Assembly (NCBI GenBank): GCA_028279705.1
Contig: JANQNF010000012.1
Location: 96,163-160,162 of the forward strand
Length of the DNA stretch: 64,000 nt
Source of the DNA: an archaeon
GTDB lineage: Archaea > Aenigmatarchaeota > Aenigmatarchaeia > QMZP01 > JAFGSV01
Reading direction: 5' to 3'
Positions within the stretch are counted from its first letter, which is position 1. Each line of letters opens with the position of its first letter. A program made the position numbers. Below, one piece after another: positions 6,001-9,000 of the stretch.

Positions 6001-9000
6001 CTATTAAACCGATAGTCTATCGGGCTCTCCTCTCCGAACTGAAAGTTACCAATCAGGTTGGAGAACGACGAACTCTTTTTAGGATCGGCTTCGGGCTTAG
6101 ATGCTTTCAGCCCTTATCCGAAACGGCGTAGCTACTCAGCAATGCTTTCACAACTGATCCACCAGAGGCCGCAACGCACCGTTCCTTTCGTACTTGATGC
6201 ATTTTCCCCTCAGTTCGCCAACACATCCAGTAGATATAGACCGTACTGGCTTATGCCTCAACTTGGATACCCTTTCTGATCAAAGATAATCTCATGCTCT
6301 TCTCCGGATGGAGAGAGCCGATATTATCAAAGAACTTGGCAACTTCCCTGATACCATGAATTTTCAGACGGTAAACCGGATTTGTGTACCCCTTTTTGAA
6401 GTAAGGTCCACAAATATTCCCGGTCTTGATACCAAAATCTGAAATGATTTGTTTTAATCCCTCCAAACATTCTCTGTTTGATTGTGTGAAGTGTATTCTG
6501 ATATTCTTTGGTTCGACGTTTCCGCATTCTACATGCGGAACGCCTCCCTCAGAATCGAAGAATCCCTTCACGTATTCTTTTTGTATTTCCAGAGGAGCAT
6601 CTAATACAACTTCCGGTGTATTCCATTTGCTTTGTGTACCCGGATAATTGCTCATTCTGGTAATCGCCTCGTAAATATGCCTGGAATTTATCATCAAACT
6701 CCAGACATTGTCCCTCTTGTCGAGGGTTATAAGAGGCTTCTTACCAAACAAATCCTCTGAAATCTTTGCCAATTCTTCAATCCACTTCTTATTTTTCTGG
6801 TATATTCTGATCCTGTATGTTGAGTTTTTGACGTTTCTTATGAAACATCCGTCTCTCATAGCACCGAGAAAATATGAAAGCATTTTCATCTGATGCCTCT
6901 GGATTGAAATTGGCTCCATGATTATTGTTCGGGAAACGGGTTTATCTGCTTTTAATGGGGTCTTGAAGGTTAACCATCAAAAGAAGACAAACCCGAATAT
7001 TGCCAGAGTCCTTATGTGAGATCCAAATTGAGTTCGCACCGTACTTAACCCAGCTAACGTGGCTCTTTAATGGGTGAACACCCCCACCCTTGGGCGCTGC
7101 TGCACGCCCAGGAGGAGCCGAGCCGACGGCGGAGAAGCAACGCGCGGGGTCGATATGAACTCTTGCCCGCCACCACTCCATTATCCCCGAGGTAGCTTTT
7201 CTGACACACCTGGCCCCCAATAGTGAGGACACAGGGGATCGCTAGGCCACGCTTTCGCGCCAGGTTCCCTTTTAACAAAAATACTTCTAGAAAGGGTCAT
7301 TTCTAAAAGTTCCTTTTGTCAAGGAACCTGTCAGGCTGGCTTTTGCCCTTACACTCTTCTCGTGATTTCTGACCACGATGAGCCAACCATAGGGCGCCTC
7401 TGATCCTTTATCAGAGGCGTACCGCCCCAGTCAAACTGCCCACCTGATGGTGTCCCCCGAAGGGTTGAGCAGTATAGTAACCAAAGGATGGTGTTACATT
7501 GACGCTTCACATGCTCCCGAAAGAACATGCACGACGCTCCCATCTACGCTATGCATCGGTCACCATACCACAACATCAAGCTGCAGTAAAGTTCTACGGG
7601 GTCTTCTCATCCCACTGGACGTCTCCTGCTTATGCACAGGAAGAGTCAGTTCACTGGGTATCTGTTTGGGACAGCGGAGATCTCGTTAAGCCATTCATGC
7701 AGGCCGACAATTAATCGGCAAGGGATTACGCTCATTTCTGTTACTTTAGTGACCTCATTGATGAGGCGGATTACCATTTCTGATAACCTCCTTATGTCTC
7801 CATAAGGTTCGGACTATCTCTTCACCTTGCGGTGTCTGGCATATAGTCTCTGAAGATTCTTCTCCGTGTGGAGAAGTCTTTCCTGCGGATTGTCTCTATT
7901 CTGTGAATTTTTAGGGTTCGTCTCCGAATCACTTCAGAGATATCCTATCACAGATCTAGCGAGATGTTCCCGCAAATAGCCAGATTTTATTAAGGCAACG
8001 TACTCACCTTAAGACGGTCAGAGTTACCGCCGTCGTATACTGGGGCTTAGCCTCCTTGAAAGAAGGTTTCACCGACCAGCACTGGACAGACCTCAGGAGC
8101 TATACGCACGCTTTCGCGCTAGCAGCCCCCTACGTTTTTGTTAAACAGTCGGACCTCCCTTGTTACTGAGACCTACCCTTCCCAACTTAGTCAGGAGGGT
8201 AGGCATCCCTTGTACCAAAGATACAGGACTAATTTGCCTAATTCCCTAAACAGATTTCTCCCAACACGCCTTCCCCTTCTCAGGGCGGGACACCAGTGAC
8301 GGTTCTCGGTACGAATACAGAAGATACTTCCATGCTGATTTTTCAGGGGTTATAGGAACCGATCAAACCCCCATACGGGGGCCATTCCGGCATTCACCTG
8401 GTTCTCATCATGAAGATACTCCCCAGGCTTCAACCGTTAGCCACTCGCGTGGTTGATCTATCCTAAAACATCACCAGCACAGCTTGCGTCACCGCACGTA
8501 CTCCTGTAGCGGAGGAATATTAACCCCCTTCCCTTTCGCCATACTCCGGTTAGGGTATGACTTAGGATCGGCTAACCCTCAGTTGATTATCATTGCTGAG
8601 GAACCCTAGCCCTTCAGGCGGCTGAGTTTCTTTCCCAGCTTCGCTGTTACTATCGACAAGATTCTTGTTTTCACGGGATCCACCAGAACTTACGGACTGA
8701 TTTCTGCTCCCGCGAAACACCTTCCTACACCCTCTTTCGAGGTCTGAGGTATCGGTAGACTATTTAGCCCCGTCCATTTTCGAGGCTCCTGACCTTGGTG
8801 GGTGAGCTATTACGCACTCTTTAAAGGATGGCTGTTTCTAAGCCTACTTCCCCACTGTCTGTGGTCAGAAACACTCTTCGTCACTTAATAGTCATTTTGG
8901 GACCTTAACCCCAGTCTGGGTTCTTTCCCTCTCGGAAAACGAGCTTACCCCGTCCCCTCACTCCCGCCTTCTACAGTGATAAAAGATTCGGAGTTTGGCA

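What the first reader, a model, noticed from the sequence alone, without database searches (positions are those of the whole stretch)
6251..6256. Both intron homing-endonuclease genes end with their stop codon as the last three intron bases at the BHB splice site
The 23S HEG ends ...GAG GCA UAA|GCC (6251) and the 16S HEG ends ...CGA GCC UAA|CGA (11059). In two independent introns the final codons (Ala, stop) supply the 4-bp helix strand and the bulge of the BHB motif. The coding sequence therefore doubles as the splice signal, and termination is exact in linear, excised and circular forms. This may be a design rule or a trace of how HEG-containing BHB introns arise.
Basis: seen in the sequence. 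Interest (0 to 1): 0.7.

Follow-up and report, generated by a model that had tools for sequence, protein, structure and literature searches.

The report
Homing-endonuclease stop codons at intron ends
Two archaeal rRNA introns each carry a homing-endonuclease gene whose UAA stop codon is the intron's last three bases, but that UAA is mostly dictated by the RNA fold that marks the splice site, and many related introns do not stop there.

Summary
The 23S intron (7033..6251, minus strand) and the 16S intron (11680..11059) are canonical bulge-helix-bulge (BHB) introns. Each encodes a double-motif LAGLIDADG endonuclease whose UAA is the last three intron bases. RNA contigs confirm the 23S junction. 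The 16S junction rests on homology plus BHB geometry.

I surveyed 59 confidently folded BHB rRNA introns from the window and 40 archaeal loci (mostly DPANN). The intron supplies A as its first base in 52 of 59 and AA as its last two bases in 41 of 59. Base -3 must pair with exon base -6. So wherever exon -6 is A, and often where it is G, the intron ends in UAA whether or not it codes.

ORF-less introns end in UAA at 5 of about 18 sites and ORF-bearing introns at 6 of 18. A 31-nt tRNA intron in this window also ends in UAA.

Among 11 LAGLIDADG intron sites the stop falls exactly at the intron end at 4, one base earlier at 2, and within -11 to +12 nt at the rest.

Relatives at the same sites often read through into the exon (AAA, GAA, CAA, GAU, UAU) or carry the terminal stop out of frame.

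This is a recurrent by-product of a compact gene overlapping the splice signal, not a design rule. Weak selection for in-frame use is not excluded.

The parts
6251..7033 (-). 23S rRNA BHB intron (783 nt) in the loop of helix 93
   Evidence: Rfam LSU alignment shows an insertion of about 784 nt. RNA contigs join 7034 to 6250 in X2 and X3, the DNA run has no joint, and RNA depth over the intron is zero. Canonical BHB scored h2=4, h3=12.
6251..6919 (-). LAGLIDADG homing-endonuclease ORF (222 aa); its stop UAA is 6253..6251
   Evidence: ORF list. Pfam LAGLIDADG_3, E 1.4e-13. 27 homologues, with D23 and E124 invariant. Weak match to PDB 2DCH, deposited as a putative homing endonuclease.
7033..7039 (-). 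23S BHB 5' side: central-helix strand GUGC (7039..7036, exon) and bulge G-A|A (7035, 7034 | 7033)
   Evidence: Read from the sequence. H2 covaries in homologues: UUGC/GCAA, GUUG/CAAC, GGCG/CGCC, GUCG/CGAC.
6250..6266 (-). 23S BHB 3' side: H3b CCAAGUUGAG (6266..6257), H2b GCAU (6256..6253), bulge A-A|G (6252, 6251 | 6250). These bases encode ...Gln-Val-Glu-Ala-stop.
11059..11680 (-). 16S rRNA BHB intron (622 nt) at about E. coli position 1093 (helix 37)
   Evidence: Rfam SSU alignment. Intronless relatives in RNA contigs match through the shared UAA. BHB scored h1/h2/h3 = 2/4/8 and is also the MFE fold of a mini-construct.
11059..11634 (-). LAGLIDADG homing-endonuclease ORF (191 aa); its stop UAA is 11061..11059
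   Evidence: Pfam LAGLIDADG_3, E 4e-9. 23 homologues. Not detectably similar to the 23S endonuclease.
11680..11686 (-). 16S BHB 5' side: H2a AGGU (11686..11683, exon) and bulge A-A|A (11682, 11681 | 11680)
   Evidence: H2 covaries in relatives: AAGA/UCUU, ACGA/UCGU, AGGG/CCCU, UCGU/GCGA, CGGC/GCCG.
11058..11072 (-). 16S BHB 3' side: H3b CAUACCGA (11072..11065), H2b GCCU (11064..11061), bulge A-A|C (11060, 11059 | 11058). These bases encode ...Ala-Tyr-Arg-Ala-stop.

Best explanation
Both elements are ordinary mobile archaeal BHB introns in the rRNA genes of a DPANN-like archaeon. Each carries a compact single-chain LAGLIDADG homing-endonuclease gene with no 3' untranslated region. The last 5-6 codons are the 3' strand of the splice signal: the intron-intron helix H3b, then the 4-nt central-helix strand H2b, then two bulge bases.

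In this group of introns the intron-supplied bulge bases are almost always A. The intron starts with A and ends with AA. The base before AA must pair with exon base -6. So any intron inserted where exon -6 is A (16S site: AGGU|AA), or G with a wobble pair (23S site: GUGC|GA), ends in UAA for structural reasons.

If the endonuclease frame runs through the helix in the right phase, that UAA becomes its stop. Otherwise the gene stops a few codons earlier or reads on into the exon.

Shown: the intron boundaries (RNA-level for 23S), the BHB geometry, covariation of the central helix, the A/AA bias, an equal UAA frequency in non-coding introns, and loss of the stop in relatives.

Inferred: that the arrangement arises from compaction plus structural constraint rather than from selection for the stop position, and which RNA form is translated.
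For: The junctions and BHB are established for both introns.

The cut geometry is validated by two tRNA introns in the window. One of them is 31 nt, non-coding, and ends GCGUAA.

In 59 confident BHB introns, the first intron base is A in 52, the last two bases are AA in 41 and AU in 12, and base -3 is U in 22. Base -3 always pairs with exon -6, where the pairs are A-U 7, G-U 15 and G-C 17.

A terminal UAA occurs at 5 of about 18 ORF-less sites. Examples are the window's own 40-nt 16S intron ending CGGUAA, and L086, L015, L030 and L024. It occurs at 6 of 18 ORF-bearing sites.

In the 1093 family, d (the offset of the end of the stop codon from the last intron base) is 0 wherever exon -6 is A and the bulge is AA. 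This holds for the window, L097, L099 and L082, which between them have three different H2 sequences. The ORF reads through where exon -6 is U (L081 AAA, L095 GAA), where the bulge is AU (L096 UAU), or where the register shifts (L083 GAU).

The H93 family behaves the same way. GCAUAA gives d=0 in the window, L001, L002 and L004. GCAAAA, CAACAA and CGACAA give an earlier stop in L003, L005 and L007.

The C-terminal tails are variable in sequence, while the HP.K motif 13-21 codons upstream is conserved.
Against: Of the 5 LAGLIDADG sites whose intron ends in UAA, the UAA is in frame at 4. Chance expectation is 1/3, giving a one-sided p of about 0.045.

Of the 7 LAGLIDADG sites where the ORF reaches the intron end, 6 are in phase 0 (LAGLIDADG status). 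This hints at some selection or shared descent beyond pure structure.

RNAfold on a truncated 23S construct prefers an alternative pairing (GGU/GCC) to the central helix. For that intron the BHB therefore rests on geometry, covariation and the RNA junction rather than on MFE.

There is no same-organism RNA evidence for the 16S junction. Sites were counted by hand, and lineages are not fully independent.
Confidence: 0.72

Rival explanations
1. Selected design rule. The stop codon is kept at the terminal bulge by selection, so that the endonuclease terminates identically on the precursor, the linear excised intron and the circular intron. This would imply that the excised or circular intron is the mRNA.
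For: The stop falls exactly at the intron end at 4 of 11 LAGLIDADG sites and one base earlier at 2 more. The terminal UAA is in frame at 4 of 5 sites that have it. The ORF is in phase 0 at 6 of 7 sites where it reaches the intron end. d=0 is kept in the 1093 family through three different central-helix sequences.
Against: The U is forced by pairing and the AA is general to BHB introns here, so retention needs no selection on the stop. Non-coding introns have the same UAA frequency. About half of the 1093-family proteins, and P0009 and P0021 of the H93 family, read into the exon. L085 has the terminal UAG out of frame, L006 has a stop spanning the junction, and the site-1433 endonucleases always terminate in the exon at the conserved GGUAA/GGUAG.
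Confidence: 0.18
2. Trace of origin. One ancestral cassette of endonuclease gene plus BHB, whose ORF ended at the intron's last codon, spread to new rRNA sites. Only the 4-nt central-helix strand changed each time, so the ORF/3'-end register is inherited.
For: Endonucleases at sites 919, 1166, 1433, 660, 734 and H93 are homologous (A1 profile, E 1e-18 to 1e-110) and share the C-terminal IGS.HP.K motif close to the intron end. There is a phase-0 bias.
Against: The distance from the HP.K motif to the intron end varies from 13 to 21 codons, so the register is not fixed. The window's two endonucleases show no detectable pairwise similarity. ORF-less introns with the same BHB core exist at the same sites, so the gene could equally have invaded pre-existing introns or decayed in place.
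Confidence: 0.1
3. Pure coincidence in this window, with no general tendency.
For: Given a structural UAA at both ends, the chance that both are in frame is about 1/9.
Against: The same arrangement recurs at two further unrelated sites (16S-919 in L010, L013 and L022; 23S site m23-1166 in L024). Stops cluster within -11 to +12 nt of the 3' splice site at all 11 LAGLIDADG sites.
Confidence: 0.05

Closest known systems
Archaeal BHB rRNA introns encoding LAGLIDADG homing endonucleases. From my own knowledge: I-DmoI in Desulfurococcus 23S, I-PorI, I-ApeI, I-Tsp061I, I-Vdi141I. From the literature: Thermoproteales 16S introns at loci 908, 919, 1093 and others (PMC4496867).
   Same: The splice motif is the same: two 3-nt bulges separated by a 4-bp helix (PMC5829648). 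The host genes are the same, and so are some of the insertion loci (919 and 1093 are listed in PMC4496867). The enzymes are the same double-motif LAGLIDADG type. The 23S enzyme matches PDB 2DCH, and the 16S family weakly matches an I-DmoI chimera. A Pyrobaculum 16S intron (L012) is in the same family as the DPANN 919 introns.
   Different: The host is a DPANN-like archaeon from a coral metagenome with at least four 16S and two 23S introns. In the papers I could search I found no statement about the position of the stop relative to the splice site. In Pyrobaculum L012 the homologous ORF reads 27 nt into the exon.
Homing-endonuclease ORFs that overlap structural elements of group I introns (review PMC3073962, listed but not read)
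   Same: A mobile-intron gene is compacted until its coding sequence overlaps RNA elements needed for splicing.
   Different: Here the overlapped element is a protein-recognised BHB, not a ribozyme core. The overlap reaches the very last intron base. The comparison rests on my own knowledge of that literature, not on a test here.
rRNA insertion sequences with LAGLIDADG genes in CPR bacteria (PMC11270868)
   Same: Homologous LAGLIDADG_3 genes sit inside rRNA genes. About 50 of the 80 loci returned by the profile search are CPR or other bacteria.
   Different: Bacteria lack the BHB splicing endonuclease, so those insertions cannot use this splice signal. I did not analyse them.

Membership tests
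Archaeal bulge-helix-bulge (BHB) intron | A 4-bp central helix flanked by two 3-nt bulges on opposite strands at the exon-intron boundaries | tested here: met
   23S: GUGC/GCAU with bulges GA|A and AA|G. 16S: AGGU/GCCU with bulges AA|A and AA|C. The central helix covaries in relatives.
Archaeal bulge-helix-bulge (BHB) intron | The intron is absent from the mature RNA and the exons are joined exactly at the bulge cuts | tested here: met
   23S only: RNA contigs in X2 and X3 join 7034 to 6250, with zero intron depth, and no such joint in the DNA run X1.
Archaeal bulge-helix-bulge (BHB) intron | The same, for the 16S endonuclease intron | tested here: inconclusive
   Only contigs from related intronless organisms span the site. 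The boundary comes from homology (3-nt ambiguity) plus BHB geometry.
Archaeal bulge-helix-bulge (BHB) intron | Cleavage by the tRNA splicing endonuclease, ligation by RtcB, and circularisation of the intron | not testable with these tools
   No raw RNA reads of this organism were available. Contigs show no intron RNA.
LAGLIDADG homing endonuclease (single-chain, two motifs) | Sequence membership in a LAGLIDADG family above the curated threshold | tested here: met
   PF14528: 51.4 bits for the 23S protein and 37.0 bits for the 16S protein, against a cut-off of 22.5.
LAGLIDADG homing endonuclease (single-chain, two motifs) | Two LAGLIDADG motifs, each with a conserved acidic catalytic residue | tested here: met
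   23S protein: YFLGAMRDG (D23) and GFFDSEGG (E124), both invariant. 16S protein: GLWSADRG (D19) and GRFDGDG (D107), both invariant.
LAGLIDADG homing endonuclease (single-chain, two motifs) | Site-specific cleavage of the intronless allele (homing) | not testable with these tools
   The only indirect support is patchy presence and absence of the introns at the same sites in relatives.

The most novel reading that the evidence does not exclude
Beyond the structural constraint, there may be real selection or inherited register that keeps LAGLIDADG reading frames in phase with the last codon of BHB introns. The terminal bulge would then act as a built-in terminator valid on the excised or circular intron. 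That would imply that the stable circular intron, not the pre-rRNA, is the normal mRNA for these endonucleases. The near-invariant intron-supplied A...AA bulge bases would be a recognition feature of the DPANN splicing machinery that the genes have co-opted.
Probability: 0.2. Interest if true: 0.55.

Novelty: new member of a known kind. Interest (0 to 1): 0.3.

Why it matters
The case shows how far a selfish gene can be packed into an archaeal intron: its last five or six codons are the splice signal itself.

It gives a simple predictive rule. The intron ends N-A-A with N pairing to exon base -6, so UAA appears wherever exon -6 is A and often where it is G.

That rule is useful for annotating intron-rich DPANN and Thermoproteales rRNA genes. 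It is also useful for calling the true C-termini of intron-encoded endonucleases, which gene callers often extend into the exon.

It does not reveal a new mechanism. If the weak in-frame and phase bias proved real, it would bear on which RNA form is translated.

Tried and rejected
1. RNA evidence for the 16S junction. Runs X2, X3, X23 and X25 gave only contigs of related intronless organisms, and no contig of this organism spans the 20-nt exon between the 40-nt and 622-nt introns. No circular-intron signal was seen, because RNA depth over both introns is zero in Logan contigs.

2. Literature. Three full-text searches and a term search within PMC4496867 found no statement on stop-codon position relative to BHB splice sites. 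Older subscription papers on archaeal introns are not searchable here, so prior description cannot be excluded.

3. The metagenome scan with the 16S family returned only 14 loci. I supplemented it with four contig look-ups.

4. The automatic BHB caller failed for a 16S-919 subfamily (L011, L014, L015, L017, L018, L020, ending CCCCAA..), for L013 at site m16-1439, and for several 23S sites. Their boundaries stay uncertain and they are left out of the confident tallies. In all of these subfamily members the ORF runs past the homology boundary (by 6-91 nt on the caller's provisional boundaries).

5. My first mature 16S reference was one base short at site 1433, which mis-registered those introns. 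I corrected this by hand using the universal GUCGUAACAAGG sequence and the 116-nt RNA joint.

6. The idea of a fixed endonuclease-plus-BHB cassette was rejected, because the distance from the motif to the intron end varies from 13 to 21 codons.

7. The MFE fold of a truncated 23S construct does not form the central helix. I did not rely on MFE for that intron.

Full report
LOCUS. The window carries an archaeal rRNA operon on the minus strand. The 16S gene runs from about 12896 to 10505 and the 23S gene from about 10009 to 5930. Both genes are heavily interrupted. Rfam alignments of sub-regions show an insertion of about 784 nt in the loop of 23S helix 93. They also show about 676 extra bases in the 16S region around helices 35-37. 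Two minus-strand ORFs fill these insertions: 6919..6251 (222 aa) and 11634..11059 (191 aa). Both pass the Pfam LAGLIDADG_3 threshold. Both have two LAGLIDADG motifs with invariant acidic residues in their families. They are not detectably similar to each other by BLASTP. The nearest relatives come from DPANN archaea (Nanoarchaeota, Aenigmatarchaeota, Woesearchaeota). The DNA is found in a coral metagenome run.

CHECKING THE OBSERVATION, 23S. The RNA-sense sequence reads ...GUACGGUGCGA|ACUCAAUUUGG...CCAAGUUGAGGCAUAA|GCCAGUACGG. Contigs from two metatranscriptome runs (X2, X3) match the flanking exons without mismatch and join 7034 directly to 6250. They give no depth over 6259..7010. The DNA run X1 covers the intron and shows no such joint. 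The joint has a 1-nt ambiguity. The mature loop GGUGCGAGCCA has the 11-nt length of the helix-93 loop in other rRNAs; this comparison rests on my own knowledge of E. coli 23S. A canonical BHB fits exactly. The central helix is GUGC (exon -6..-3) paired with GCAU (intron -6..-3). The bulges are G-A|A and A-A|G. A 10-bp intron-intron helix follows. With cuts after the second base of each bulge, the intron is 7033..6251 and UAA is its last three bases.

CHECKING THE OBSERVATION, 16S. The sequence reads ...GUCAGGUAA|AUUGGUAUGACCG...CGGGCAUACCGAGCCUAA|CGAACAAGACCC. The 5' exon also ends in UAA, so homology and contigs of intronless relatives leave a 3-nt ambiguity. The BHB is also the MFE fold of a mini-construct. 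Its central helix is AGGU/GCCU, its bulges are A-A|A and A-A|C, and its inner helix is UUGGUAUG/CAUACCGA. This puts the cut after the intronic UAA, giving an intron of 11680..11059.

CUT GEOMETRY. I validated the geometry independently on two intron-containing tRNAs of the same window. Only a cut after the second bulge base restores tRNA-Val with loop CUUACAA, and tRNA-Ser(GCU) with a perfect 5-bp anticodon stem. The 16S junction is not confirmed by RNA from this organism. And the helix strand is the Ala codon plus the U of the stop; only AA lies in the bulge.

SURVEY. A profile of the 23S endonuclease family retrieved 80 genomic loci. Of these, 28 are archaeal: DPANN, one Pyrobaculum and one Asgard. 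The 16S family gave 14 metagenomic loci and five more from contig look-ups. I aligned all archaeal loci to the window's spliced rRNAs and refined each insertion boundary by spliced alignment. I then scored the canonical BHB, requiring 4/4 central pairs and at least 4 inner pairs. This gave 59 confident BHB introns at about 30 rRNA sites. LAGLIDADG ORFs were recognised with family HMMs and Pfam. I define d as the end of the stop codon minus the last intron base.

LAGLIDADG SITES. Eleven independent sites have a confident BHB.
- d = 0 at four sites: 23S helix 93; 16S at about 1093; 16S-919 in L010, L013 and L022 (...CCCCUAA|UUGGCGG); and 23S site m23-1166 in L024 (...GGCCUAA|GCUU).
- d = -1 at two sites: GGUGAA| in L003 and GUUAAG| in L005.
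- d = -5, -11, +7, +9 and +12 at the other five.

The genes therefore have essentially no 3' untranslated region, and an exact terminal stop is the commonest single outcome.

WHY UAA. Across the 59 introns, the first intron base is A in 52. The last two bases are AA in 41 and AU in 12. Base -3 always pairs with exon base -6, with counts A-U 7, G-U 15, G-C 17, C-G 11, U-A 8 and U-G 1. A BHB intron in these organisms therefore ends N-A-A, where N is set by the exon. It ends in UAA whenever exon -6 is A and often when it is G.

Non-coding introns show this equally. UAA ends 5 of about 18 ORF-less sites. These include the window's own 40-nt 16S intron (...CCGGUAA|AGAUG), 46- to 167-nt introns in L086, L015, L076, L018, L020 and L030, and a 129-nt 23S intron in L024. 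UAA ends 6 of 18 ORF-bearing sites. The 31-nt intron of tRNA-Ser in the window ends GCGUAA.

RELATIVES AT THE SAME SITES. In the 1093 family the stop is kept through three different central helices: AGGU/GCCU, AAGA/UCUU and ACGA/UCGU. All three have exon -6 = A. The ORF reads on into the exon in these cases:
- exon -6 is U (L081 ...GCGAAA|, +234 nt; L095, whose protein continues with Glu);
- the bulge is AU (L096 ...CCCUAU|);
- the register shifts by one (L083 ...CCUGAU|).

L085 ends ...GCCUAG| but out of frame. About half of the family's proteins continue with the translated exon (ERTRPAPY...).

At helix 93, GCAUAA gives d = 0 in the window, L001, L002 and L004. Variants whose exon partner differs end GCAAAA, CAACAA or CGACAA and stop 18-20 nt earlier. 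In L006 the cut is shifted by one base, so that UAG spans the junction.

At the 16S 3'-terminal site, where the window has a 116-nt non-coding version, the endonuclease ORF of L068, L076 and L077 ends its intron part with CAA in phase 0. It terminates 9 nt into the exon at the conserved GGUAA/GGUAG. In L069 the ORF instead stops 6 nt before the intron end.

INTERPRETATION. The coding sequence does double as the splice signal, and the arrangement is recurrent. But the stop is largely a by-product of three things: a gene compacted up to the intron end, a fixed 6-nt terminal geometry (4 helix bases plus 2 bulge bases), and A-rich intron-supplied bulge bases.

Some residual signal remains. The terminal UAA is in frame at 4 of the 5 LAGLIDADG sites that have it (p about 0.045 against 1/3). 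Six of the 7 LAGLIDADG ORFs that reach the intron end are in phase 0. These counts are small, hand-curated and not phylogenetically corrected. I give 0.18 to a selected rule and 0.10 to inheritance of the register from a common cassette. Against the cassette idea, the distance from the conserved HP.K motif to the intron end varies from 13 to 21 codons.

COMPARISON WITH WHAT IS KNOWN. These are members of the known class of archaeal BHB rRNA introns with LAGLIDADG homing endonucleases. Insertion loci 908, 919 and 1093 are already catalogued in Thermoproteales (PMC4496867). The BHB definition follows PMC5829648. I found no published statement on stop placement, but much of the older literature is not searchable here. 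The nearest conceptual parallel is homing-endonuclease ORFs that overlap group I ribozyme elements. That parallel is drawn from my own knowledge.

VERDICT. The best explanation is structural constraint plus gene compaction (0.72). Novelty is a new member of a known kind, with a modest and useful annotation rule. Interest is 0.3.

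Noticed in passing
window 7790-8036 (minus); by homology about 7741-8005: A group I catalytic intron (Rfam RF00028, 84.8 bits) sits in the 23S gene of this archaeon, beside the BHB introns. Group I introns in archaea were reported only in 2018 (PMC6125680). Relatives such as L024 lack it.
   Followed up: partly
window 11908-12044, 11704-11743 and 10550-10665 (minus): Three further non-coding BHB introns lie in the 16S gene. One is 137 nt at about E. coli 908. One is 40 nt and ends CGGUAA. One is 116 nt inside the 1492R primer site, and its removal is seen in an RNA contig of X3. 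The gene therefore has four introns and is 2.39 kb long.
   Followed up: partly
window 26161-26264 and 26988-27104 (minus): Two tRNA genes have 31-nt introns at non-canonical positions. tRNA-Val(UAC) is interrupted between positions 33 and 34 (intron 26231..26201). tRNA-Ser(GCU) is interrupted inside the 5' strand of the anticodon stem (intron 27072..27042). Both introns start with A and end with AA. ARAGORN missed both genes.
   Followed up: partly
59 BHB introns in the window and loci L001-L099: The intron-supplied bulge bases are strongly biased. The first intron base is A in 52 of 59. The last two bases are AA in 41 and AU in 12 of 59. This may reflect a substrate preference of the splicing endonuclease or ligase in these lineages.
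   Followed up: partly
window 13060-13395 (+): A free-standing 111-aa ORF with a single LAGLIDADG_3 domain (E 1.3e-12) lies just upstream of the 16S gene on the opposite strand. Its 3' end overlaps tRNA-His (13376..13449, minus). It may be a half-size or decayed homing endonuclease.
   Followed up: no
L017:1862-2491, L013:10733-11359, L014:10685-11404, L021:10895-11641, L030:8200-8964: Some large BHB rRNA introns of DPANN and Asgard archaea carry ORFs that are not LAGLIDADG. One has an ArsR/MarR-like winged helix (HTH_5, E 1.4e-5). Others have weak sub-threshold matches to HTH_3, DUF559 and Phage_endo_I. L013:10733-11359 gave no Pfam hit at all. They may be other kinds of intron-borne nucleases or DNA binders.
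   Followed up: partly
sites m16-734, 891, 923, 1007, 1142, 1433 and m23-886 in L010-L092: Coding introns (570-810 nt) and non-coding introns (36-407 nt) occupy the same rRNA sites with the same or nearly the same terminal hexamer. Examples are CGACAA, GGCGAA, CUGGAU and CACCAA. This fits gain and decay of the endonuclease gene inside a persisting BHB intron.
   Followed up: partly
window 11700-11742, DNA run X1: A DNA contig in the same coral run joins 11700 to 11742 with one extra C. This is a co-occurring variant, or a relative, that lacks the 40-nt 16S intron.
   Followed up: no
L004 (uncultured archaeon, contig CAZSLL010000011.1): The 23S gene of this relative has at least nine insertions of 100-1400 nt, several with endonuclease ORFs. 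This is an extreme intron load.
   Followed up: no
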